A stretch of DNA of 64,000 nt from UHGV virus genome UHGV-0036384, one strand, 5' to 3'. This document shows, in pieces, positions 2,881 through 64,000 of the stretch. Source of the DNA: a virus. Numbering within the stretch: position 1 is the stretch's first letter; every line of letters starts with the position of its first letter. The position numbers were made by a program, and so were the translations under genes. Under the pieces are notes generated by a model that made no database searches, had not been told where the DNA came from, and saw nothing but the letters and a program-made list of their open reading frames with translations.

Positions 2881-3681
2881 ATGCAACAAACATTCAATGC
2901 GGATATGAATATATCAAACCTTCATCAAAATGTCGATCCTTCAACCACTCTGCCCGTTATTTGTGGTGTTGAAATTACGACCGACCGCGCTGGCCGTTAC
3001 AACCTTAATGCTCTACACAGAGCGAGCGGACTCGGTGCCCATAAAGCGCCAGCTCAATGGCTAAGAACGCTGTCAGCTAAACAGCTCATCGAAGAGCTTG
3101 AAAAAGAAACTATGCAGAATTGCATAGTTTCGTTCGAAGGCCGTGGCGGCGGCACTTTTGCCCATGAATTGCTCGCTGTGGAGTACGCAGGCTGGATTTC
3201 TCCCGCGTTTCGGCTGAAGGTAAACCAGACATTTATCGACTATCGAACCGGAAGATTACAACCTGCTATTCCGCAGAGTCTCCCTGAAGCTCTCCGTTTG
3301 GCTGCCGACCTGGCAGAGCAAAAGCAACGGCTGGAGCAAAAAATGCTTATGGATGCACCTAAAGTCGAATTCGCTGAACGCGTTGCTACCGCCAGCGGGG
3401 TTCTAATCGGCAACTATGCCAAAGTGCTCGGCCTGGGCCAAAACTATCTCTTCACCTGGTTGCGTGATAACGGAATTCTGATCGCAACCGGTGAACGCAG
3501 GAACGTCCCCAAACAAGAATACATATCCCGTGGGTATTTCACCCTTAAAGAAACCGTGATCGATACAAGCAATGGAAGCAGGATTTCTTTCACGACTCGT
3601 ATAACCGGCAAAGGTCAGCAGTGGCTGATGAAGCGATTGCTTGATGCTGGTGTGCTGGTACCTGTCGCGGCAACGCGCTAA
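2881..3681 (+). CDS. kilA: KilA (lytic replicon, host-killing function)
   Basis: 266-aa ORF; KilA-N-like N-terminus and ANT-like C-terminus; directly precedes repL. Confidence 0.75.
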   Translation: MQQTFNADMNISNLHQNVDPSTTLPVICGVEITTDRAGRYNLNALHRASGLGAHKAPAQWLRTLSAKQLIEELEKETMQNCIVSFEGRGGGTFAHELLAVEYAGWISPAFRLKVNQTFIDYRTGRLQPAIPQSLPEALRLAADLAEQKQRLEQKMLMDAPKVEFAERVATASGVLIGNYAKVLGLGQNYLFTWLRDNGILIATGERRNVPKQEYISRGYFTLKETVIDTSNGSRISFTTRITGKGQQWLMKRLLDAGVLVPVAATR

Positions 3682-3710
3682 CAGACGTAGTAAGAACCAC
3701 CAGCATTGTA

Positions 3711-4556
3711 ATGCTGGCTAAAGTCACTTTCCTGAGCTGTATAACGATGAGCGATTTTACTTTTTCTGGCTATGAATTGGCCTGCTTTGTAACACACTCC
3801 GGTCTATCCCGTAGCGCCGGGCATATCCTGTCGCAATGTGCAAATCTCGCGGCAACAACCAGTGAATACTTCATTCACAAGCCTCACCGCCTGATCGCGG
3901 CAGAAACTGGTTATAGCCAATCAACCGTCGTTCGTGCATTCCGTGAAGCTGTAAACAAAGGAATCCTGTCTGTAGAGATTGTTATCGGCGATCACCGTGA
4001 ACGTCGCGCTAACCTGTACCGGTTTACACCATCCTTTTTGGCCTTCGCACAACAAGCCAAAAATGCGCTGATTGAAAGCAAATTAAAGATCTCTTCAGCG
4101 GCAACCAAGGTTAAAGCTGTTCTCGCTAAGACATTGGCTTTATTTAATTTTTTATCCACACCCCCATGTCAAAATGATACCCCCTCCCCCTGTCAGGATG
4201 ACGTGGCAATAAAGAATAAGAAGTCACAAGTTAAAAAAACAAAAAGATCAGTTTCCGGCGGTGCCGGAACGAGCAGACTCAAAAAATTGACTTCATGGAT
4301 CGCTGAGACAAAAGCAAAGGCTGACAATCTGCGGTTATCCAAAAAACGCGCACAAAAACATGAGTTCAAGCAGAAAGTAGAGGCGGCAGCGCGGAAATAT
4401 GCTTACCTGAAGAACAAGCGTTCTCCTGATATTGGCGGGGTATCAAACTTCGATAATTTGCCGCATTGCATGACGGTAAACGAAGCTCTTAATGCGGTTT
4501 TAGCCAAAAATAAAGATAACGAAAAATGGGGTATACCGGCAGGATTCAGAGGGTGA
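3711..4556 (+). CDS. repL: RepL lytic replication initiator
   Basis: 281-aa ORF (P1 RepL length) downstream of kilA; HTH-like segment STVVRAFREAVNKGIL. Confidence 0.75.
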   Translation: MLAKVTFLSCITMSDFTFSGYELACFVTHSGLSRSAGHILSQCANLAATTSEYFIHKPHRLIAAETGYSQSTVVRAFREAVNKGILSVEIVIGDHRERRANLYRFTPSFLAFAQQAKNALIESKLKISSAATKVKAVLAKTLALFNFLSTPPCQNDTPSPCQDDVAIKNKKSQVKKTKRSVSGGAGTSRLKKLTSWIAETKAKADNLRLSKKRAQKHEFKQKVEAAARKYAYLKNKRSPDIGGVSNFDNLPHCMTVNEALNAVLAKNKDNEKWGIPAGFRG

Positions 4557-4606
4557 TAGATTGCTCTAATCTGGAGTCACCTGGCGTTTTCAGTTTGAGG
4601 TCGGAG

Positions 4607-4852
4607 ATGCAATCTGATTTTTTACAGTTAGCGATCGCTTTTGCAGGATATGTTTGTATTGGCTTCTGTGTATACATGATCAGCCGAAAAATGCTTGTCG
4701 ATATCGACCGCAAAGAACGAGCAGAGGAGATCTTAGTATGGATTTTCTTTGGCGCGGTCTGGCCATTAGGGATCATGTTTGCTGCAACATTTCTTCTGAT
4801 GTGGATATTCACCCTTCCAGGTGATTTCTATAGAAAAAAAGCCAGACATTGA
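4607..4852 (+). CDS. small membrane protein
   Basis: ATG at 4607 preceded by gaggtcggag; two hydrophobic helices (LAIAFAGYVCIGFCVYMI, ILVWIFFGAVWPLGIMFAATFLLMWIF). Confidence 0.35.
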   Translation: MQSDFLQLAIAFAGYVCIGFCVYMISRKMLVDIDRKERAEEILVWIFFGAVWPLGIMFAATFLLMWIFTLPGDFYRKKARH

Positions 4853-55391: not shown

Positions 55392-56033
55392 ATGGATAAG
55401 AAAATATGCGTTGTGTCGATGAGCGTCGGCAAACCGGCGTCAATGACTGCTGCATGGATCAATAACGAGCTGATAATGGCTGAGCGGACCAGCTACCCTG
55501 AACGCCGCCGCGATATGGAACTCCAGCTGCTGCGCGAATTGCGAGAAAAAGAGGAAAAGGGTTTTATCGTGCTGGTGGAAGAGGAAAACAGCTTTATTAC
55601 TGGTCGAGTTGGCCAGCGTGTAAGGTTGCGCGATCCCTTCATGAACGGCAGGCCGGTACTAATTGAGGCAATGCAGATTTATAAGGAGCTGGAACGCCAG
55701 AAAGCAATCAAGTTACCGCGCAAGGAATCCGGCAAATACATTCTCCACCAAAGCATCTTCGATTCCGAACACGATAAAAAAGGCGATGAATTTTTCAACA
55801 TCAACTGGAGCGAAATAACGACAGAGCATGTTCTGACGTTACTATGTTGCTTTGCGACGGAATACAACAACGTTGCCAGCGCCGACTACATCAGGGCAAT
55901 GGCTGGAGAAGTTGAGGCCCGCCAAGAACCATCGTTACTAAGTCCACTGATTAACATAATTCTGGGCACCCAGATACTGGAACAAAAAAAAGTGCCGAAA
56001 GGGGTATTAACAGGCAAGCATAATTATTTTTAA
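55392..56033 (+). CDS. Mat-like protein (particle maturation)
   Basis: 214-aa ORF after ref. Confidence 0.45.
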   Translation: MDKKICVVSMSVGKPASMTAAWINNELIMAERTSYPERRRDMELQLLRELREKEEKGFIVLVEEENSFITGRVGQRVRLRDPFMNGRPVLIEAMQIYKELERQKAIKLPRKESGKYILHQSIFDSEHDKKGDEFFNINWSEITTEHVLTLLCCFATEYNNVASADYIRAMAGEVEARQEPSLLSPLINIILGTQILEQKKVPKGVLTGKHNYF

Positions 56034-56126
56034 CAATTACATACAGTAATTTTGTGGTTACATTCTCCATTGATTTTCTAACCGCTTTATCATTAGATGT
56101 AACAGCATGTAAATCATTTAAAATGG

Positions 56127-57263
56127 ATGAAAGCAATGGGGAATGAAGTTTATCAAAGTCAAAAATGCAAGTTGAAATATTCAAAATCTCAAATTGATAG
56201 GGCTGCTCAATTGATAAGGCACGGGTGTAGTGACGAAGAAAGGCAGCAATCTATTGAAATGATACAAAATTTCCGTGAGCTGCATCTTTATCCATTAATG
56301 CTCATGAAAAATCATTTAGCAAGAGCAGCTGCTAAGGTTGACAAGGACAAAAAGATTCTCGTTGCAAGAAGACTTAAGCGACTTTCTACCATAATAGATA
56401 AACTAGAGCGTCCTAGTCTTGATGGAGGCAGAACTAGCAATGCAATTAAATTAACACGGATGCAGGACGTTGGCGGATGTAGGGCCATTGTCAGAAACTT
56501 AGACCAGTTGATACAGCTAAAGGAACGTCTTTTAAAAAGCAAATCTGTTCATAGGATTGTTAAAGAGTATGATTATCTTACTCCCAAAGACAGCGGCTAT
56601 AGTGGAATCCACCTTGCATACAGTTGCTTCGATCAGAAAGAGGATCAATATCCGTGGCGAAAAACAAAGATTGAGATACAGTTAAGAACTCAATTGCAGC
56701 ATGCTTGGGCTACCAGCCTTGAAATAATTGATACCCTTGAAGGTATCAAGCTGAAAACTTCAAGTGAAGGGCATCCAGAATGGAGACGATTTTTCTATCT
56801 AGCCGGATGTCTTGTAGCGCACGACGAAAAAGCCTGCACTCTTGATGAGCTAGTTGTATCTCAGTATGAAGGCGAGCTTAAAGAGCTGGAACGGACTTTA
56901 TCTGTACGGAGGAAACTAAGCACATACACCATCGCCTTAAATTTAACTTCTGACGCGAATTTGATTAAGAAGTTGCCAAAAAATCATAAGGGGCATTACT
57001 TAGTAACAATGAGAAATGCAGAAAACAAGCCCAATACAAAAAACAAAAAAATGTTCCTAGTGTCTGTTCGCGCATTTAAAACAAAAGAAGCAGATGAAGC
57101 CCTTGAGGCCTTAAATAAAGACGATTCTAATCCTAATGTATTGATATCTGTTCTCGTTGCTACAGATAACATTAAGTCACTAAAAAAAGCCTACCCCAAC
57201 TATTTTGGCTCAACAAACCAGTTTACAAAATTCTTAGATAAGCATCTTCGTAACGAAGGATAG
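56127..57263 (+). CDS. fused toxSAS toxin-antitoxin candidate (RelA/SpoT-domain, CapRel-like)
   Basis: 378 aa; all four synthetase motifs in order (RLKRLSTIIDKLER, DVGGCRAIV, GYSGIHLAY, EIQLRTQLQHAWA); Lys-rich C-terminal ~170 aa; AT-rich; occupies P1 res-mod position. Confidence 0.75.
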   Translation: MKAMGNEVYQSQKCKLKYSKSQIDRAAQLIRHGCSDEERQQSIEMIQNFRELHLYPLMLMKNHLARAAAKVDKDKKILVARRLKRLSTIIDKLERPSLDGGRTSNAIKLTRMQDVGGCRAIVRNLDQLIQLKERLLKSKSVHRIVKEYDYLTPKDSGYSGIHLAYSCFDQKEDQYPWRKTKIEIQLRTQLQHAWATSLEIIDTLEGIKLKTSSEGHPEWRRFFYLAGCLVAHDEKACTLDELVVSQYEGELKELERTLSVRRKLSTYTIALNLTSDANLIKKLPKNHKGHYLVTMRNAENKPNTKNKKMFLVSVRAFKTKEADEALEALNKDDSNPNVLISVLVATDNIKSLKKAYPNYFGSTNQFTKFLDKHLRNEG

Positions 57264-57299
57264 TTGCTTAATTTTGCCCGGTAATTCCGGGCAAAATTG

Positions 57300-57548
57300 T
57301 CAATCTGCATTCAGGAGCAATGCGTTATCTATGATGATCTGCTCCCATTCTTCGAATGCCCGATCGCGGACGCCCTGGGGAACACTGTTAGTTTTGAAAT
57401 CGACCACCGTCCGCCATTTCCCGTCCGGGCGGTACATGCGCAGAGCTTTACTTCCCCCTTCCCTGCGCACCTCAACGTTATGCTTATCAGCAAACTCTTG
57501 TAATGCTCGTAGCGTCCCATGCTTTACTGTGTAGTATCGCTTTTTCAA
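57300..57548 (-). CDS. lxc: Lxc-like modulator of C1
   Basis: 82-aa ORF downstream of ulx/darB. Confidence 0.55.
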   Translation of the reverse strand: MKKRYYTVKHGTLRALQEFADKHNVEVRREGGSKALRMYRPDGKWRTVVDFKTNSVPQGVRDRAFEEWEQIIIDNALLLNAD

Positions 57549-58018: not shown

Positions 58019-61000
58019 TTATGCGTATTGTTGGATGACGGCCAGAACGTCCGCCACGTTGTGTTTTGTCTCGATAATCCACCAGTTACCCGGGAAATCG
58101 CTGTTCTTCGCCTTCGCTGGCAGCCAGCGAGCGCCGAATTTCGCCTTGATTGCGTCTTTCGCACGGAAAAGAACGCCTTTCATGCCTGAGGCTTCCTGAA
58201 GCCCAAATACCTCGCCAGCGGCGAATTTTGGTGCGTACATCATCTTCAGGTCGGCGGTGGATACGCGATAATTCAGACCAAGAGACTGAGCTATGCTGGT
58301 GGCATCACCCTGTATTGATGATAACTCTTCTTGTTTCTCGTTTCTGGCGGCAATTTCTTCCTCCGTGATGTTGCCAAGGGCCAGGTTTATCCGATCAGCG
58401 TCGGCCTGTTTCTCTTCATCGGTGCGTCCGGCAAGAACCGTGTTAACTCTCTGCAATATCTCCACATGATTCTTGCGCATGCTGAGCAATTCCGGCGTAA
58501 CCTCGTTAAGATCCACCAGCCCAAGGATGGCAAGGTCGGAAAACATTGATACCAGGTTGTAGGTCATGCGATAGCTGAGTTGACCATAGGCTGATGGCAA
58601 CTTCACCGCATCCATTTGATAGGCATCCATAAATTTAGAGCCGTCGTTTACGACATCCGCAATTGCCGGTGTGATTTTTCCTGTGGTGGCGGCCTCCCTG
58701 ATTGCTGTTACCCACGATTGAGTCAGCGCGGCGACTGCATGATTCAGATTGGCTTTCCGTTCTGCTGCAATGCGCGCACTTGCTGCGTCCATTGCCTGCT
58801 TGATCTCGTCTTTATTGCTGTAAATGCCAATGGTGCCAAACTGTGCTGTGGTGATCTCATAATCTGACGCCCGGAACTCATTGGTACCGAAAATGGCATT
58901 GGTGACTTCAAGTTCAGAATCCCCGTTACGAGTAGACCCCTGGCTTGTTTTTTCCGGCATTCTGGCGATCGCATCCGCTATTTTCTCCTGAATTGCTTCA
59001 GGGGATAGCGTATCTCCGTATGACGCGATTACATCGCCATAATTGGAGCCAAACAATTCAACCAGGAATGTTTCTGCCGAACGGATCTGGCGGTTATTCC
59101 CTTCCGACATCATACCAAGCACCCATTTTGCAATTGACGACTTCAGCGCGCCGTCACGGCGATCCGGGTAAACCGCATGCTTCAGTGGGTCCGTATAGGT
59201 GCCAACAAAATCAATGCTATAGCCTGACTCTGTAGTCTGAACGCCGTATGAGTCAGTGATTTTGATCATGCCGCGCTGCTGGAAACGGTAGAAATCGTCA
59301 CAGGAAATGATGTCGTTAATCCCGGCGATGGAGACGCCACCACTGATTTTCTGCATAACAGCATCTTCATCGGGAGTTACATCCACCTGTTTATCCAGCG
59401 TCTTCACATCCCAGTTACCCGATTTGGTGCCTTTGAAGGTAAAGATGATCTCCACGTCTGCGCGCTGGCTGTCGAAGTCCAGCGACTTAATGCGAACGAT
59501 ATCACCGGCACAATCATAGTATTGGCCTACACGCCATGAGCGATCGCCGATAACAAGGAACTCATTCGCATGGTTAACCAGATCAGGATCAACATCCAGA
59601 ATGCCTTTATTTATTGCATCCTCCACCAGCGGGCGCAGGCGTTTGATATCCGTCGCGGCCTTCTGAGTACGGTTCAATAATTTCTCATAGCGGGAGATGG
59701 CCTGAGAGATATTAGCCTTGCGCTGAATGGCGCTTTTCAACGACGCGCGATACTGTGCTAACAACATACGGTCTGTGTGATGGACGCTACCCCAGCGGGC
59801 TTTCCAGTCTGCGTTATCAGCTGCTTTGGCCATTACCGCCTGTTTGAATTTGGCGACGTCGGCGGTGGTCTTTTCAAGTTCCGCTTTGCTTCGCTCCAAT
59901 TCAGCGGTAAGTACCTCCACATCCTCACCAGCTGCGTGCTGCGCCTTGATGTAGTTCTGAAGGTCGATAGTAGCCTGTTCTTTCTGGCGAGCGCGTTTCG
60001 CAGCTTTCGCCTTATCCATTTGAACCTGCATCATTACCAGACGTTCGCCGTCATCCTTCGCGGTATACATCTGCATTTCGATCATGTCATTGGCGTCGGC
60101 GTTCTCCATTTCTGACTTATCTGAACGGAGGATATCGGAGATCCAGCCTGCTTTACGCTTCAGCGTCTTCAGTCGGTATTCATCGAAAGACCCCTTGCCG
60201 CAGTAGTAGTGAACGCGAACGCTTGCACGGTTGGAGCCAACTCGTGCACCGCGACCGTTACGTTGTGCGATACTGGCTGGTGTCCACGGCAACGTCAGGT
60301 GGTGGATATCCGTCGTTCCTCGATGCAGGTTGATACCCACCTCTGCCTTTTTGTTGCAGATGATGATCGGAGTCCGGCCCTCCTGGAAGTCGGCTGCAAT
60401 CTTTTCCAGACCGCCCAACGACATTTCATTTTGCTGCGCGATATAGGCGTCATACAGAGCCATTTGCTCGTTGTATTTCGCTATCTGTGCATCTGTTGGT
60501 TCATCCGGTAGCTCTTTCGGCGGTTTAACCGCTTTCAGTTTCTTACCGGTTTTACCTGCCTCGGCAACCGTCTGAGCATTCAGGATCCCCACCTTTGAAG
60601 GTTCAAGGTTTAGAGCATTGCAGATAATGCGCTTGAGCTTCTGGTGCTGCGTTTTTTCATCGGTGAAGATGATTTGCTTACCTTCCGGGAAAAACTCCTT
60701 CAGCGTGGCGATCAGCTTCGCGTATTTCGGCGTAACGGGGTGAGTTACGGTCTGTTCGTCAATGCCAAACCTGGCCAGGCGATTATTCACTTCCTGCTCA
60801 AATGCTTCCGGTACCTGCAACTGAATAAACTCGCCCTTATCTATCAGGGAGTATTGCGATTGCTGCGTGATCGAATCATCACTGTCGTCGTCTTCGCTGG
60901 TGGCTTGTTTAGGCAAACTGTCCGCCAGCTGCTGCACCGCATCGGCGTACTCCGGCAGGAAACGATAGGTGATCCTGCGATAGTACAGGTCCATGTCAGT

Positions 61001-64000
61001 ACATACGCGGTCCATATCCCTGATTATTGAGAAGATCGGACGGGCTTTCTCGTGCTCAATCACGCCGTCTTCATTGACCGAGGTCGTTACGCCATTGTTG
61101 GCTTTGGCTGCCGCTTCCGCCTGCTGACGCAATTCTTCATACGCCGCCAGTTGTTCTTCCGTAAGTGGTGCATCCTGCTGGTGTTCGTCCAGTTCCGGGA
61201 TCTCCACGGTATCCTTAACGTCTTCCGCCGTTTTAAGCGTTGTCCAGCGATGGAATATGCCGCGCAGCGCATCAAGGTTTTCAAAGCCCACCAGCGCCAT
61301 TTTTTCTTCAACTTCACCGCTGATTTTCTGTACCGTTTCCAGCCTGGTCTTGCCGAAGAATTTAACGAAGTCATCAGGACCGTAGATCCCCATCTTCTGC
61401 CAGTATTCCTTCGGCAGCACATGAGAAAGCATGTTGTATGCATCGATCGGGGTGTTAACGACTGGCGTTGCAGTCAGGAGAACCGGTCCGCGCCCACCAT
61501 TCTTTTTCATCAGGTACGCGTTTTTAATTGCCATATCCCGCGCCGATTGCGCCACCGCGCTGGTGGGCAGATAGGCCAGTTGTGACGCTTCGCGACCATT
61601 TTTATAGCTATTGCGGTAGTTGTGACCTTCGTCAGCGATCACACTATCGAAGCCCATATCCTCAAAGTACGGATACTTCTCTGCTTTTTCGGTGCCGGTA
61701 TCTGAATACTCCGACAATACCCGGCGACGCGCGGCCTCTTTGCGGTGGGAGTCGGAGTCCATTGCGCTGGCTACGCGCCCGGCGGCAACGAAGTCATAAA
61801 GCATATCCTGTGCATGCTCATCTACGGTGTCATCACGTAGCGGAATGCGGGCGTATTGTTCTTTGGTAAACACGACTGCACGGTAATTTGAGTGCGGGAT
61901 CGCGTTCATCCGCGCCGTGATAGTGGCTTCATCTGCCAGTTTTAGGGCATCGCGCATAACTGGAGTGCCATCAGTACCAAGAACAGGTTTACCGTTCTCA
62001 TCGAGCACCGGCACCTGGCGAATCTGATCGCCATCCATCAGCACATCAAGACCGACGAACAGGTAGTTACTGAATGCCTCTTCACTCAGGAATTCTTTTG
62101 CTTCGTAATACCAGTTTTCCAGCACTGATTTAGGCACTACATACGCAGTACGGGTGGAGCGACCGTTCTCATAGTTGAACGCCTCAAGCGCCAGCGCGGT
62201 CGTAGTTTTACCCAGCCCGGTGCCGAAGCCCAGGATGCCGCGCCCATCTTCGGACAGTCGGCGCACTTCGCTATTCTGGTAATCAAATGGCTGGCGCTTA
62301 CCGCTTAATCCCTTCAACCCAAGCGGATCGCCAGAGTGTTCATACGGGATATTGCTATTGAACACATCGTTGTATTTGGCAACCAGTTCATCGTAGCGAT
62401 CGTGCGTCTTGATCCACTTATTGAACTGGTCCTCAAGCAGTGCCATCTGCTCGCGGTAGCCGTTCGCCGTCGCGCTATCTTTGCCACCGATACGCGCACC
62501 ATTGAGATACTTTTCCAGCTGTGCCGGGAACCCGGTCGCGTTTTCACCTGATTTACGGTCCCACTCGTAGCGGATCTCGCCTGTTTCTTTATCCTTGCGC
62601 TGGACGACACCGTATCGGTGCCCGACGAACAGGCCATCACCACCGTGATAGGTGTCAGAAACCATTTCGTCGCCTTCCAGCTGCACTGACTGCACATAGC
62701 GCAGATCCGGATAGCCGTTTTCCTGCAAAAACTCCAGAATGACGGAACGGTCGAACCAACGGCTATTGAGCTTAAAGCGGATATTCTCTGCTGGCGTCTT
62801 GATGCGCTTCTCTTCGATCGCTGCCAGCTGATTAAGGACGTTGTTCTTTACTGGACCGTCGGGGAGCGTGGCGAGGAATTCCTGTTTTGGAGCCACTATC
62901 TCGTTAATGTCGCCGCTGGTGGCGCGGGCGAACGGAACAATCCCGCCATACGGAGAAACCGCAATACCAGGGGTGCTGGCCAATAAATTGAGTAACTCTT
63001 CATCACTGGCTGGCAGTTCGCCGGTAAACGCAAGGCGGAAATCATCGAGCTGGATTGGATCGCGGGTAAGATCGCTATAGAGATAACGCAGGGTATCCTG
63101 ATAGCTGGTGGAGTCATAACTGGCGCTGGAATCATGCGTAACCAGCTTTCCTGTCAGCTCGTCAGAAATAGTGCCATCCAGCTTAATTGCACCACGGAAA
63201 GCAAACCAGGCGCGCGCACCGCTTCCCGATAATTTAGCTATCGGACCGCGACCGGGGTTACCAAAATGGTCAATCTCTGCCTGCAAACGGGACACCAGAG
63301 AAAGGCGCTGTTGTTCGATTTGTTCAGCACTATGCCCGGCGGCCTTCATATCCTGATATTCAATTAACATCCGGCCAATCATCGCCCCGCGATACAAGCG
63401 TTCACGGTATTTTTCAGGCTGGCTGTTAATCCAGTCCACCAGCTGCACCATATCGTCGCTGATTGATGTGGTGTACTTATCGCGGACATTTGCCATCTGG
63501 GTAAATGTCATGCCGAGACGGCCTTCTGTTGTAGTCAGGTTACGCTGAAGAGCCTCCCAGCTATCCGCGCCATAACTGGCAGCATCGATCTTAAGTTCCT
63601 TCCCGGCATCAGCTTCAATCCAGCGACCACCAGCATATTTTTGCCATACACCATTAATCAGGCGCATTTCCCCTTCACCAACAACGTCTGCGGTCGGTGA
63701 CGGTTCAGCCATATCGAGCAAAGACCAGTCGATACGGCTTTCGAAACGATGAATCAGCTTCGCTTTAAGAGCCTGGTTATCAATCTGACCGTCGGCACGA
63801 ACCTCAATACGCCCCTGGAAGCCCTTTTCCTGGGTGCCATGAACAAACCGGCGGCCATCCTTTTCAAACCACTTGCCAGAAATAAACGTTGGCCAAAGCA
63901 CATTTGCCGATTCAAGAGTGCCTTCATCCACCAGGGGGATTTTCTCAGCCATCTCTGCCGGATGTTTGCGCATCAGCACCACATCAACGACTGTACTGGT
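58019..64000 (-). CDS. darB: DarB-like giant antirestriction protein (helicase part and C-terminus; N-terminus lies beyond window end)
   Basis: Uninterrupted minus-strand frame of more than 1987 codons; Walker A GFGTGLGKTTTA, DEGH box VIADEGHNYRN; ORF still open at window edge. Confidence 0.8.
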   Translation of the reverse strand, partial: TSTVVDVVLMRKHPAEMAEKIPLVDEGTLESANVLWPTFISGKWFEKDGRRFVHGTQEKGFQGRIEVRADGQIDNQALKAKLIHRFESRIDWSLLDMAEPSPTADVVGEGEMRLINGVWQKYAGGRWIEADAGKELKIDAASYGADSWEALQRNLTTTEGRLGMTFTQMANVRDKYTTSISDDMVQLVDWINSQPEKYRERLYRGAMIGRMLIEYQDMKAAGHSAEQIEQQRLSLVSRLQAEIDHFGNPGRGPIAKLSGSGARAWFAFRGAIKLDGTISDELTGKLVTHDSSASYDSTSYQDTLRYLYSDLTRDPIQLDDFRLAFTGELPASDEELLNLLASTPGIAVSPYGGIVPFARATSGDINEIVAPKQEFLATLPDGPVKNNVLNQLAAIEEKRIKTPAENIRFKLNSRWFDRSVILEFLQENGYPDLRYVQSVQLEGDEMVSDTYHGGDGLFVGHRYGVVQRKDKETGEIRYEWDRKSGENATGFPAQLEKYLNGARIGGKDSATANGYREQMALLEDQFNKWIKTHDRYDELVAKYNDVFNSNIPYEHSGDPLGLKGLSGKRQPFDYQNSEVRRLSEDGRGILGFGTGLGKTTTALALEAFNYENGRSTRTAYVVPKSVLENWYYEAKEFLSEEAFSNYLFVGLDVLMDGDQIRQVPVLDENGKPVLGTDGTPVMRDALKLADEATITARMNAIPHSNYRAVVFTKEQYARIPLRDDTVDEHAQDMLYDFVAAGRVASAMDSDSHRKEAARRRVLSEYSDTGTEKAEKYPYFEDMGFDSVIADEGHNYRNSYKNGREASQLAYLPTSAVAQSARDMAIKNAYLMKKNGGRGPVLLTATPVVNTPIDAYNMLSHVLPKEYWQKMGIYGPDDFVKFFGKTRLETVQKISGEVEEKMALVGFENLDALRGIFHRWTTLKTAEDVKDTVEIPELDEHQQDAPLTEEQLAAYEELRQQAEAAAKANNGVTTSVNEDGVIEHEKARPIFSIIRDMDRVCTDMDLYYRRITYRFLPEYADAVQQLADSLPKQATSEDDDSDDSITQQSQYSLIDKGEFIQLQVPEAFEQEVNNRLARFGIDEQTVTHPVTPKYAKLIATLKEFFPEGKQIIFTDEKTQHQKLKRIICNALNLEPSKVGILNAQTVAEAGKTGKKLKAVKPPKELPDEPTDAQIAKYNEQMALYDAYIAQQNEMSLGGLEKIAADFQEGRTPIIICNKKAEVGINLHRGTTDIHHLTLPWTPASIAQRNGRGARVGSNRASVRVHYYCGKGSFDEYRLKTLKRKAGWISDILRSDKSEMENADANDMIEMQMYTAKDDGERLVMMQVQMDKAKAAKRARQKEQATIDLQNYIKAQHAAGEDVEVLTAELERSKAELEKTTADVAKFKQAVMAKAADNADWKARWGSVHHTDRMLLAQYRASLKSAIQRKANISQAISRYEKLLNRTQKAATDIKRLRPLVEDAINKGILDVDPDLVNHANEFLVIGDRSWRVGQYYDCAGDIVRIKSLDFDSQRADVEIIFTFKGTKSGNWDVKTLDKQVDVTPDEDAVMQKISGGVSIAGINDIISCDDFYRFQQRGMIKITDSYGVQTTESGYSIDFVGTYTDPLKHAVYPDRRDGALKSSIAKWVLGMMSEGNNRQIRSAETFLVELFGSNYGDVIASYGDTLSPEAIQEKIADAIARMPEKTSQGSTRNGDSELEVTNAIFGTNEFRASDYEITTAQFGTIGIYSNKDEIKQAMDAASARIAAERKANLNHAVAALTQSWVTAIREAATTGKITPAIADVVNDGSKFMDAYQMDAVKLPSAYGQLSYRMTYNLVSMFSDLAILGLVDLNEVTPELLSMRKNHVEILQRVNTVLAGRTDEEKQADADRINLALGNITEEEIAARNEKQEELSSIQGDATSIAQSLGLNYRVSTADLKMMYAPKFAAGEVFGLQEASGMKGVLFRAKDAIKAKFGARWLPAKAKNSDFPGNWWIIETKHNVADVLAVIQQYA

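What the first reader, a model, noticed from the sequence alone, without database searches (positions are those of the whole stretch)
56040..57263. Single-gene RelA/SpoT (toxSAS) fused toxin-antitoxin candidate sitting where P1 carries res-mod
The 378-aa product has all four (p)ppGpp-synthetase-type nucleotidyltransferase motifs in the right order (R-x-K-x3-S-x3-K, D-x2-G-x-R-x-I, G-Y-x3-H, E-I-Q-x-R-T-x3-H-x-W-A). It is followed by a ~170-residue Lys-rich C-terminal region rather than a hydrolase or ribosome-binding domain. That is the architecture of fused toxSAS / CapRel-type anti-phage proteins, which pyrophosphorylate tRNA 3' ends and are triggered by incoming phage capsid proteins. The gene is AT-rich, monocistronic, and lies between conserved mat and lxc. 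I cannot tell from sequence alone whether this is the described CapRel of P1-like phage SJ46, a divergent allele with different trigger specificity, or a new toxSAS subtype.
Basis: partly seen in the sequence, partly recalled or inferred. Interest (0 to 1): 0.85.

Follow-up and report, generated by a model that had tools for sequence, protein, structure and literature searches.

The report
Untested CapRel allele in P1-like phage
This gene is a real but uncharacterised variant (74% identical) of CapRel, a known single-protein anti-phage toxin-antitoxin, and it sits in a swappable defence-gene slot of a P1-like phage-plasmid; family, mechanism and location are already described, so only its trigger specificity remains open.

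Summary
An intact ORF (56127/56136..57263, +) encodes a 375-378 aa RelA/SpoT-type protein in a 1,265-bp AT-rich cassette. The cassette lies exactly between the mat and lxc stop codons, where P1 and P7 carry type III res-mod. The protein is a full-length homologue of CapRel-SJ46 (PDB 7ZTB/9ERV; E 5e-185; 74% identity). Every experimentally defined catalytic and autoinhibition residue is conserved, and the predicted C-terminal fold matches the pseudo-zinc-finger antitoxin/sensor. It is none of the four tested CapRels: SJ46 74%, Ebc 70%, EcHT-type 70%, Kp about 35%. Divergence is concentrated in the specificity-determining region (53-63% identity; unique beta6-beta7 loop). Synonymous sites versus SJ46 are saturated (pS 0.85), while the flanks are 93-100% identical, so an old allele was swapped into the same slot. 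The exact protein (WP_000526244.1) is common: at least 1,000 contigs, and 52 of about 699 P1-like plasmids against 22 with the SJ46 allele. A 2025 preprint already notes CapRel in E. coli P1-like phage-plasmids. This is a new member of a known kind, of modest interest, and its trigger is unknown.

The parts
55392..56033 (+). mat (maturation control), the left conserved flank. Homology to P1, RCS47 and JL22 ends at its stop codon (TAA, 56031-56033).
   Evidence: PGAP annotation of the identical plasmid. blastn breakpoints at 56027-56034. The last 23 codons are already diverged from SJ46 (dS 1.38, against 0.19 for the first 190 codons), so the recombination breakpoint lies inside the 3' end of mat.
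56035..57299 (+). The 1,265-bp cargo cassette: leader, CapRel gene and hairpin. It occupies the variable mat-lxc slot.
   Evidence: Breakpoints against P1, RCS47, JL22 and Ro157c2YLVW. DNA identity to SJ46 is 55-77% inside the cassette and 93-100% outside it. GC is 38.8% against 48% for the window. 52 plasmid records carry it at >=99.5% identity.
56035..56135 (+). Non-coding leader homologous to the SJ46 leader. Candidate promoter TTGATT (56070-56075), 17-nt spacer, TTAGAT (56093-56098). SD-like GGATG at 56125-56129, 6 nt before the ATG at 56136.
   Evidence: The leader alignment with SJ46 shows conserved blocks at these positions. The equivalent ~115 bp of SJ46 was the 'native promoter' that drove functional defence in PMC9712102. 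This is inference only: the consensus promoter scan found no site in the leader.
56136..57263 (+). CapRel-family fused toxSAS toxin-antitoxin CDS: 375 aa, RefSeq WP_000526244.1, stop TAG at 57261-57263. An alternative in-frame ATG at 56127 gives 378 aa.
56136..56951 (+). Toxin part (residues 1-272 in SJ46 numbering), containing the toxSYNTH nucleotidyltransferase core. R79 is at 56370-56372, R116 at 56481-56483, and the G-loop Y155 at 56598-56600.
   Evidence: 77% identical to SJ46 residues 1-272, and 81% over the core 41-200. R79, R116, Y155 and A77 are conserved. Pfam RelA_SpoT matches residues 82-196.
56952..57260 (+). Antitoxin/sensor part (residues 273-375): the end of anchor helix alpha9, the pseudo-ZFD (approximately 56973-57149) and the C-terminal anchor helices, with the YXXY autoinhibition motif Y353-x-x-Y356 at 57192-57203.
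   Evidence: 64% identical to SJ46 over 273-373, 59% over the pseudo-ZFD and 91% over 338-360. V338, L339, A341, A351, Y352, Y355, L280 and L307 are conserved. The AF2 model shows beta286-294, beta307-315, alpha316-330, beta335-343 and terminal helices. The beta6-beta7 loop RNAENKPNTKNKKM is unique and carries a 1-residue insertion.
57272..57296 (.). Perfect GC-rich palindromic hairpin (TTTTGCCCGGTAATTCCGGGCAAAA) between the convergent CapRel and lxc stop codons.
   Evidence: RNA fold -21.8 kcal/mol, z = -6.1, 0 of 200 shuffles as stable. It is not a canonical intrinsic terminator: the U-run is upstream and the A-run downstream on both strands, and the terminator scan did not flag it. Analogous hairpins occupy this position in SJ46 and in the empty-slot phage RCS47.
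57300..57548 (-). lxc (modulator of C1), the right conserved flank. Homology to P1-family phages resumes at its stop codon.
   Evidence: dS to SJ46 is 0.12 and dN is 0.

Best explanation
The gene encodes an uncharacterised allele of CapRel, a fused (single-polypeptide) toxSAS toxin-antitoxin carried as lysogen-expressed cargo by a P1-like phage-plasmid. The mechanism is inferred by homology to CapRel-SJ46. In uninfected cells the C-terminal pseudo-zinc-finger/anchor domain folds back onto the N-terminal toxSYNTH domain, and the YXXY motif (Y353/Y356) inserts between R79 and R116 to block the ATP site. When a superinfecting phage makes a specific protein, that protein binds the C-terminal domain, holds the enzyme open, and lets it transfer pyrophosphate from ATP to the 3' end of tRNAs. 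This stops translation and aborts the infection, protecting the lysogen population and the resident phage-plasmid. Shown here: family membership, conserved catalytic and autoinhibitory residues, the predicted fold, the position in a defence-cargo slot, purifying selection, and the ancient divergence of this allele from SJ46. Inferred: toxicity, the tRNA target, the abortive-infection outcome, and the existence of a phage trigger. The trigger is unknown. Because the specificity-determining region is only 53-63% identical to any characterised allele, the phage range probably differs from that of SJ46.
For: 1. Homology. Full-length match to PDB 7ZTB/9ERV at E 5e-185, 275/371 = 74% identity with one 1-residue gap. 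PDB 7ZTB is CapRel-SJ46. PADLOC defence-candidate model PDC-S33 matches end to end at E 6.7e-86. Pfam RelA_SpoT passes its cut-off.
2. Conserved functional residues. Every residue whose mutation in SJ46 kills catalysis (Y155; R79 and R116 coordinate ATP) or causes constitutive toxicity (A77, R116, V338, L339, A341, A351, Y352, Y355) is identical. So are L280 and L307, which are needed for capsid binding (residue roles from PMC9712102).
3. Fold. The AF2 model (pLDDT 82.3, pTM 0.79) has the three-stranded sheet with a helix between strands 2 and 3, plus the C-terminal helical extension described for the pseudo-ZFD. Foldseek's top hits are 9ERV and 7ZTB, E about 1e-40, over 360 columns.
4. Selection. 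pN 0.17 against pS 0.85 overall. pN is lowest (0.04) across the autoinhibitory helix 338-360 and highest (0.24) in the pseudo-ZFD. This is the gradient reported for the family.
5. Context. The gene is in the same mat-lxc slot as CapRel-SJ46. In P1 and P7 that slot holds type III R-M, in JL22 and Ro157c2YLVW it holds other cargo, and in RCS47 it is empty. Relatives sit in a P4-like satellite and at prophage ends.
6. Maintenance. 52 plasmids carry the cassette at >=99.5% identity, and the exact protein occurs on at least 1,000 contigs.
Against: Nothing functional was tested for this allele: not toxicity of residues 1-272, not rescue by 273-375, not tRNA pyrophosphorylation, not phage defence, not a trigger. 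The promoter is only a weak consensus match (TTGATT-N17-TTAGAT) that the scan did not call. Some natural copies are inactivated by ISKpn26 or IS1 insertion or by 5' truncation, so the gene is dispensable and possibly costly. The AF2 model differs from the open crystal structures by about 10 A RMSD. That fits a closed, autoinhibited pose, but I could not inspect coordinates to confirm that the YXXY motif docks at R79/R116. The homologue CapRel-Ebc senses a phage protein together with host FtsZ rather than a capsid protein (PMC13423816), so 'capsid-triggered' cannot be assumed.
Confidence: 0.85

Rival explanations
1. It is chiefly a post-segregational killing (addiction) module that stabilises the phage-plasmid, and not an anti-phage sensor.
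For: It has toxin-antitoxin architecture and sits on a low-copy plasmid prophage. All 52 plasmid copies are in P1-like elements.
Against: Toxin and antitoxin are one polypeptide, so the differential-stability logic of addiction does not apply without specific proteolysis. The slot is empty or holds unrelated cargo in most P1-like elements: only 52 + 22 of about 699 plasmids carry a CapRel. IS-disrupted copies persist in otherwise intact plasmids. The close homologue was shown to act through phage-protein-triggered abortive infection (PMC9712102).
Confidence: 0.04
2. It is an alarmone-producing enzyme: either a housekeeping small alarmone synthetase (RelQ/RelP/YjbM-like (p)ppGpp synthetase) or an ATP-depleting (pp)pApp/pppGpp toxSAS such as FaRel or GRel/Pag1B. 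It would not be a tRNA pyrophosphokinase.
For: The catalytic domain is the shared RelA_SpoT fold. The next-best structural and sequence matches are RelP/RelQ. Other anti-phage toxSAS do make alarmones.
Against: The NCBIfam YjbM equivalog scores 35.5 bits against a cut-off of 320. Identity to SAS enzymes is about 20-25% over the core only, against 81% to the CapRel-SJ46 core. The SJ46 product is deposited as a 'tRNA pyrophosphokinase' and was shown to pyrophosphorylate tRNA. Housekeeping SAS enzymes lack the 100-residue autoinhibitory pseudo-ZFD present here.
Confidence: 0.05
3. It is a decaying or functionally silent remnant that hitch-hikes in a variable region.
For: The phage record vB_EcoM-673R5 has the gene split by two single-A deletions. 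Some plasmid copies are IS-disrupted or truncated.
Against: The window copy is an intact ORF with all key residues. pN/pS is about 0.2 over saturated synonymous divergence. 49 of 52 plasmid copies are full length at >=99.5% identity, with at most two amino-acid polymorphisms in the two variant copies compared.
Confidence: 0.03

Closest known systems
CapRel-SJ46 (Salmonella phage SJ46; PDB 7ZTB, 9ERV; Zhang et al. 2022 Nature, PMC9712102; 2024 Nature, PMC11578894)
   Same: Same fused toxSYNTH + anchor + pseudo-ZFD architecture and almost the same length (375 vs 373 aa). 74% identity overall and 81% in the catalytic core. All characterised catalytic and autoinhibition residues, and L280 and L307, are identical. 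Same mat-lxc slot in a P1-like phage-plasmid, with a homologous leader. Helix alpha9, the Gp54-Bas11 contact, is 8/10 identical, with L270, D273, N275, L276 and K278 conserved.
   Different: Pseudo-ZFD only 59% identical and swap region 270-339 only 63%. The beta6-beta7 loop, predicted to contact the capsid A-domain, is rewritten with a 1-residue insertion. K277I, S279K and R314K fall at or near Gp54-contact positions. Synonymous sites are saturated, so these are old alleles and not recent variants. Phage range and trigger are untested.
CapRel-EcHT (E. coli HT2012018; PMC9712102), represented here by its ~90% cluster P0012
   Same: Fused CapRel, 70% identity overall. Helix alpha10 and the C-terminal anchor are nearly identical to the window allele. 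It also defends via the Bas8 capsid protein even though its swap region is only 51% identical to SJ46.
   Different: A different allele: the OCR'd gBlock matches the window protein at about 56% over residues 139-372, and P0012 is 60% identical in the swap region. Its upstream DNA differs from this window's and shows no match to mat.
CapRel-Ebc (Enterobacter chengduensis; PMC9712102, PMC13423816), cluster P0017
   Same: Fused CapRel, 70% identity. Strand beta6 (NHKGHYLVTM) is identical to the window allele.
   Different: Swap region 53% identical. Ebc is triggered by T7 Gp0.4 in complex with host FtsZ. It lies in a different genomic context.
PADLOC candidate family PDC-S33
   Same: End-to-end profile match: residues 14-374 to profile positions 4-342 of 349, E 6.7e-86.
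   Different: This is a computational candidate label only, with no description in the library. It appears to cover the same family as CapRel.
Bicistronic toxSAS TA systems (PhRel/ATphRel of mycobacteriophage Phrann; FaRel2/ATfaRel2)
   Same: Same toxSYNTH toxin fold. FaRel2 appears as a weak structural match (8PU3, E 3.5e-3). According to PMC9712102, the antitoxin is homologous to the CapRel C-terminal domain.
   Different: Those systems encode toxin and antitoxin as separate genes. Here there is a single ORF flanked directly by mat and lxc, with no separate antitoxin gene annotated in the cassette.

Membership tests
CapRel subfamily of fused toxSAS toxin-antitoxins | N-terminal RelA/SpoT-type (toxSYNTH) nucleotidyltransferase domain with ATP-coordinating arginines and the G-loop tyrosine | tested here: met
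   Pfam PF04607 at E 3e-12, 47.2 bits against a cut-off of 27. R79, R116 and Y155 are conserved and invariant in a 67-sequence family alignment.
CapRel subfamily of fused toxSAS toxin-antitoxins | Full-length sequence homology to an experimentally validated CapRel | tested here: met
   phmmer against PDB 7ZTB_A: E 4.9e-185, residues 4-374 aligned to 1-370. BLASTP 74% identity.
CapRel subfamily of fused toxSAS toxin-antitoxins | Toxin and antitoxin fused in one ORF, with a C-terminal pseudo-zinc-finger domain (three-stranded sheet, helix between strands 2 and 3, no Cys ligands) flanked by anchor helices | tested here: met
   Single ORF. The AF2 model has secondary-structure elements beta286-294, beta307-315, alpha316-330, beta335-343 and helices 346-371. 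Foldseek aligns 360 columns to 9ERV and 7ZTB. There are no cysteines in residues 280-375 (sequence).
CapRel subfamily of fused toxSAS toxin-antitoxins | YXXY autoinhibition motif and the conserved intramolecular interface (A77, R116, V338, L339, A341, A351) | tested here: met
   All are identical to SJ46. A352, Y353 and R116 are invariant, and A77, V339, L340 and Y356 nearly invariant, across 67 homologues.
CapRel subfamily of fused toxSAS toxin-antitoxins | Autoinhibited closed conformation, with the YXXY motif docked in the ATP site | tested here: inconclusive
   The AF2 model aligns to the open crystal structures with about 10 A RMSD despite TM 0.70-0.76.
CapRel subfamily of fused toxSAS toxin-antitoxins | The N-terminal fragment is toxic and is neutralised in trans by the C-terminal fragment | not testable with these tools
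   Requires expression of residues 1-272 with and without 273-375 in E. coli.
CapRel subfamily of fused toxSAS toxin-antitoxins | Pyrophosphorylation of tRNA 3' ends and inhibition of translation | not testable with these tools
   Biochemical assay required. Inferred from 81% core identity to SJ46.
CapRel subfamily of fused toxSAS toxin-antitoxins | Activation by direct binding of a phage-encoded protein, and Y155-dependent phage defence | not testable with these tools
   Requires phage challenge and trigger genetics. No complex-prediction tool was available.
CapRel subfamily of fused toxSAS toxin-antitoxins | Carried as cargo of prophages or other mobile elements | tested here: met
   Located in the mat-lxc slot of a P1-like phage-plasmid. 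Relatives are found in a P4-like satellite and at prophage ends.
Housekeeping small alarmone synthetases (RelQ/YjbM, RelP/YwaC) | Meets the NCBIfam equivalog score for GTP diphosphokinase YjbM | tested here: not met
   35.5 bits against a cut-off of 320. Only the ~115-residue core aligns, at about 20-25% identity.
Long RelA/SpoT homologues (RSH) | HD hydrolase, TGS and ACT/RIS ribosome-binding domains accompanying the synthetase domain | tested here: not met
   A Pfam scan at E <= 1 found only RelA_SpoT plus a sub-threshold Sec23 match. The protein is only 375 aa.
Bicistronic toxSAS TA (FaRel2/ATfaRel2, PhRel/ATphRel) | A separate adjacent antitoxin gene | tested here: not met
   The cassette 56035-57299 contains only this gene, and its neighbours are mat and lxc.

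The most novel reading that the evidence does not exclude
This allele is the most common CapRel in Escherichia P1-like phage-plasmids, yet it has never been studied. It may recognise a different trigger set from SJ46, Ebc and EcHT, through its unique beta6-beta7 loop and its mosaic sensor surface (alpha9 and beta7 SJ46-like, beta6 Ebc-like, alpha10 EcHT-like). On this reading the mat-lxc slot of the P1 family is a defence-exchange hotspot. There, anciently diverged CapRel alleles, type III R-M systems and other cargo replace one another by recombination in the conserved flanks, retuning superinfection immunity without changing the phage backbone.
Probability: 0.5. Interest if true: 0.45.

Novelty: new member of a known kind. 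Interest (0 to 1): 0.3.

Why it matters
CapRel is the model for direct, PAMP-like sensing of phage proteins by a bacterial immune protein. Its sensor domain is thought to be in an arms race with phage capsids. This allele is a natural, abundant, intact variant in the same genomic slot as the reference protein. Its catalytic and autoinhibitory machinery is identical, but 37-47% of the specificity region is rewritten. That makes it a ready-made comparator for mapping which sensor residues set phage range, and for asking whether one scaffold can switch between capsid, Gp54-like and host-assisted triggers. It is also the CapRel most likely to influence phage susceptibility of clinical and livestock E. 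coli carrying P1-like plasmids. Beyond that it adds no new principle: family, mechanism and location are published.

Tried and rejected
1. Is it CapRel-EcHT, the E. coli homologue in the 2022 paper? No. I rebuilt the gBlock from the OCR'd supplement and it is a different allele, about 56% identical over residues 139-372, with different upstream DNA.
2. Is it CapRel-Ebc or CapRel-Kp? No. Ebc is cluster P0017 at 70%. My 46% SJ46-Ebc swap-region value reproduces the published 47%, which validates that identification. Kp is only about 33-35% identical to the family members retrieved and is absent from the top 120 hits.
3. Are the plasmid hits at 90-95% identity intermediate or recombinant alleles? 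No. They disappear when the query is restricted to the cassette, so they were flank-only matches.
4. Did the allele diverge in situ by fast evolution? Rejected. Synonymous sites are saturated (pS 0.85), while the flanking genes have dS of 0.04-0.26.
5. Is the hairpin after the gene a canonical bidirectional intrinsic terminator? Not supported. It is very stable, but its U- and A-tracts are on the wrong sides and the scan did not call it.
6. Is there a consensus sigma-70 promoter in the leader? The scan found none. Only a weak TTGATT-N17-TTAGAT, conserved with SJ46, could be found.
7. Is darB interrupted near the window end? No. It is collinear with P7 darB and runs off the window.
8. Has this allele been published under its accession? 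Searches for WP_000526244 and WP_071447930 found nothing.
9. A dS-based omega could not be computed because of saturation, so only pN and pS are reported.
Full report
OBSERVATION. An intact ORF lies at 56127..57263 on the + strand, 378 aa from the first ATG. NCBI's pipeline annotates the identical gene in plasmid records from the ATG at 56136 (375 aa, MGNEVYQ...). That is also where the SJ46 protein and its crystallised construct begin. A GGATG lies 6 nt before this ATG and is conserved in SJ46, so I use 375-aa numbering, which coincides with SJ46 numbering up to residue 298. The first is mis-spaced: the actual sequence is R-x-K-x2-S-x4-K, RLKRLSTIIDK. The Pfam RelA_SpoT domain is hit at E 3e-12, above its gathering cut-off. 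The region after the synthetase core is 175 residues and 12% Lys, rising to 15.5% in the last 103. The gene is 38.8% GC in a 48% GC window.

WHAT IT IS. The protein matches PDB 7ZTB and 9ERV end to end (E 4.9e-185). These are CapRel-SJ46 alone and bound to Bas11 Gp54. BLASTP gives 275/371 identities (74%) with a single one-residue gap. PADLOC's candidate-defence profile PDC-S33 also matches over its full length (E 6.7e-86). The housekeeping SAS equivalog YjbM scores 35.5 bits against a cut-off of 320, and no hydrolase, TGS or ACT domain is present. This excludes a RelQ/RelP orthologue and a long RSH.

I mapped every SJ46 residue with a published mutant phenotype onto the window protein (residue roles from PMC9712102 and PMC11578894). 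All of the following are identical:
- the ATP/adenine-coordinating R79 and R116, and the G-loop Y155;
- the autoinhibition interface A77, V338, L339, A341 and A351;
- the YXXY motif Y352/Y355 (Y353/Y356 in this protein);
- L280 and L307, which are needed for capsid-protein binding.
Most of these are invariant or nearly so across 67 family members.

An AlphaFold2 model built on that alignment is confident (pLDDT 82.3, pTM 0.79). Its C-terminal domain has strands 286-294 and 307-315, a helix at 316-330, a strand at 335-343 and two terminal helices. This is the pseudo-zinc-finger topology described for SJ46. Foldseek's best PDB matches are 9ERV and 7ZTB (E about 1e-40, TM 0.70-0.76, 360 aligned columns); the small alarmone synthetases follow far behind and align only to the core. 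The ~10 A RMSD to the open crystal forms suggests the model is in another domain pose, possibly the closed autoinhibited one. I could not inspect coordinates to confirm this.

WHICH ALLELE. It is none of the four CapRels tested experimentally.
- SJ46: 74% identical.
- CapRel-EcHT: I rebuilt the synthetic gene from the OCR'd supplement of PMC9712102. It matches the window protein at only about 56% over residues 139-372 and has unrelated upstream DNA.
- Using the noisy gBlocks only as probes, I identified clean database proteins for CapRel-Ebc (P0017) and for the EcHT-type cluster (P0012). Each is 70% identical to the window protein.
- CapRel-Kp is only about 33-35% identical to the family members retrieved and falls outside the top 120 hits.
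As a control, my SJ46-Ebc identity over the swapped region 270-339 is 46%, against the published 47%.

Divergence from SJ46 is uneven:
- catalytic core 41-200: 81% identity;
- autoinhibitory helix 338-360: 91%;
- pseudo-ZFD 280-337: 59%;
- region 270-339, whose exchange transfers phage specificity: 63%.

The window allele is roughly equidistant from all characterised alleles in that specificity region: 63% to SJ46, 60% to EcHT-type and 53% to Ebc. Its sensor looks mosaic. Helix alpha9 and strand beta7 are SJ46-like, beta6 is identical to Ebc, and alpha10 is EcHT-like. The beta6-beta7 loop (RNAENKPNTKNKKM) is unique and one residue longer. Among the 29 closest 90%-identity clusters in a 5.8-billion-protein collection that I aligned, none exceeds 72% identity across the pseudo-ZFD.

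LOCUS AND HISTORY. Homology to P1, RCS47, JL22 and Ro157c2YLVW stops at the mat stop codon (about 56034) and resumes at the lxc stop codon (57300). This defines a 1,265-bp cassette. The same interval holds different cargo in different phages:
- P1: res-mod of EcoPI plus IS5;
- P7: a type III res-mod;
- JL22: one unrelated gene;
- Ro157c2YLVW: two unrelated genes;
- RCS47: nothing, only about 40 bp;
- SJ46: CapRel-SJ46.

Compared with SJ46, the flanks are 93-100% identical, but the cassette, including its non-coding leader, is 55-77% identical. Nei-Gojobori counts give pS 0.85 (saturated) and pN 0.17 for CapRel, against dS values of 0.26 (mat), 0.12 (lxc) and 0.04 (ulx) for the flanks. The two alleles are therefore much older than the split between their phage backbones. 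One replaced the other, or each arrived independently at the same site, by recombination. The left breakpoint lies inside the last ~23 codons of mat, where dS jumps to 1.38. pN is lowest in the autoinhibitory helix (0.04) and highest in the pseudo-ZFD (0.24). This fits a conserved engine with a diversifying sensor, although saturation prevents a formal omega estimate.

Close relatives of the protein sit in other mobile-element cargo sites: a P4-like satellite next to psu and ogr/delta (P0013), a prophage end beside integrases (P0005), and next to a prophage CI repressor (P0006).

EXPRESSION SIGNALS (INFERRED). The 101-bp leader shares conserved blocks with the SJ46 leader. These include TTGATT-N17-TTAGAT (TTATAT in SJ46) at 56070-56098. 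The equivalent ~115 bp of SJ46 served as the native promoter in the published defence assays. The consensus scan, however, called no promoter in the leader and no terminator between mat and the gene. An independent promoter is therefore plausible but unproven, and read-through from mat is possible. A perfect GC-rich hairpin at 57272-57296 separates the convergent stop codons (-21.8 kcal/mol, z = -6.1). Its U- and A-tracts are arranged the wrong way round for a canonical intrinsic terminator.

PREVALENCE AND PRIOR KNOWLEDGE.
- The exact protein is RefSeq WP_000526244.1, 'MULTISPECIES: RelA/SpoT domain-containing protein', and is seen on at least 1,000 contigs.
- In PLSDB, 699 plasmids carry the P1-type lxc-ulx flank. 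Of these, 52 carry this cassette, all from Escherichia and all >=99.5% identical, and 22 carry the SJ46 cassette.
- Among 5,426 complete E. coli genomes, 94 have a match to the slightly wider query 56000-57300, and 76 of them cover at least 80% of it. By analogy with the plasmid search, the 11 records at 90-95% identity are probably flank-only matches.
- The minor variant WP_071447930.1 differs by N332D and E374K, both in the sensor domain.
- A few copies are broken by ISKpn26 or IS1 or are truncated. The copy in phage vB_EcoM-673R5 is split by two single-A deletions.
- A 2025 preprint that screened P1-like phage-plasmids with defence finders already states that those from E. coli commonly carry CapRel.
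- No paper in the library cites either accession. The later CapRel papers study only SJ46 and Ebc.

MECHANISM AND RIVALS. The best explanation is that this is a working CapRel, autoinhibited by its C-terminal domain. A protein from a superinfecting phage would open it, after which it would pyrophosphorylate tRNA 3' ends and abort the infection. My confidence in the family assignment and the general mechanism is about 0.85. The trigger is unknown. CapRel-EcHT still senses the Bas8 capsid protein although its swap region is only 51% identical to SJ46, so a siphovirus major capsid protein is a reasonable guess. The near-intact alpha9 helix also makes a Gp54-like trigger conceivable. But Ebc senses T7 Gp0.4 together with FtsZ, and single residues flip recognition in this system, so specificity cannot be read from sequence. 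The three rivals are a plasmid-addiction role, alarmone synthesis instead of tRNA modification, and a decaying remnant. Each is disfavoured for the reasons given in its entry.

VERDICT. Its open question is answered: this is a divergent, anciently separated allele of CapRel in the same slot as the SJ46 gene, not SJ46 CapRel itself and not a new toxSAS subtype. It is a new member of a known kind. Interest is modest (0.3). The only real unknown is its trigger specificity, and its main value is as an abundant natural comparator for the SJ46 model system.

LIMITS. No function was tested. The EcHT, Ebc and Kp sequences came from OCR'd PDF text and were used only as probes, and P0012 is a cluster-level proxy for EcHT. 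Plasmid counts are not de-replicated.

Noticed in passing
window 56034-57300, and loci L004 (P1), L005 (RCS47), L006 (Ro157c2YLVW), L007 (JL22), L008 (P7), L001 (SJ46): The mat-lxc interval is a variable cargo slot in the P1 family. It holds type III res-mod (P1, P7), nothing (RCS47), one or two unrelated uncharacterised genes (JL22: a 316-aa protein; Ro157c2YLVW: a 199-aa protein plus a 240-aa HTH protein), or one of two CapRel alleles. The unrelated cargo genes may be unrecognised defence genes.
   Followed up: partly
window 55963-56033 (3' end of mat): The last ~23 codons of mat are much more diverged from SJ46 (dS 1.38, dN 0.19) than the first 190 codons (dS 0.19, dN 0.002). The cassette-exchange breakpoint therefore lies inside mat, and the Mat C-terminus differs between lineages.
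   Followed up: partly
L002 (vB_EcoM-673R5), positions equivalent to window 56637 and 57182: The 99.8%-identical copy in this phage record is annotated as two CDSs because of two single-A deletions. It could be a real pseudogene or a homopolymer sequencing error.
   Followed up: partly
L011 (pE148-2, NZ_AP024520.1) and H54 (NZ_CP050045.1): Some natural copies of this allele are interrupted by ISKpn26 (IS5-like) or IS1A insertions, and others lack the first ~200-370 bp of the cassette. This points to occasional loss of the gene, which might reflect a fitness cost.
   Followed up: partly
window 57272-57296: There is a perfect palindromic GC hairpin between the convergent CapRel and lxc stops (dG -21.8, z -6.1). 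Different but analogous hairpins occupy the same position in SJ46 and in the empty-slot phage RCS47. None has a canonical downstream U-tract.
   Followed up: partly
window 56127 vs 56136: Two in-frame ATGs lie 9 nt apart, and both are conserved in SJ46 (ATG TTA GTA ATG there). The protein collection holds both the 378-aa and the 375-aa forms. The true start has not been determined experimentally.
   Followed up: no
L013 (Logan DRR294283 contig, 3501-4628): A 70%-identical CapRel (P0013) sits in a P4-like satellite, directly after psu and ogr/delta and downstream of the primase. The family is thus also cargo of P4-type satellites.
   Followed up: no
window 58019-64000 (- strand): The ORF list shows darB starting at an internal GTG (63982), but the reading frame is open to the window edge. 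The DNA is collinear with P7 darB (97.8% identity, no gaps), so the gene simply runs off the window and is not truncated.
   Followed up: yes
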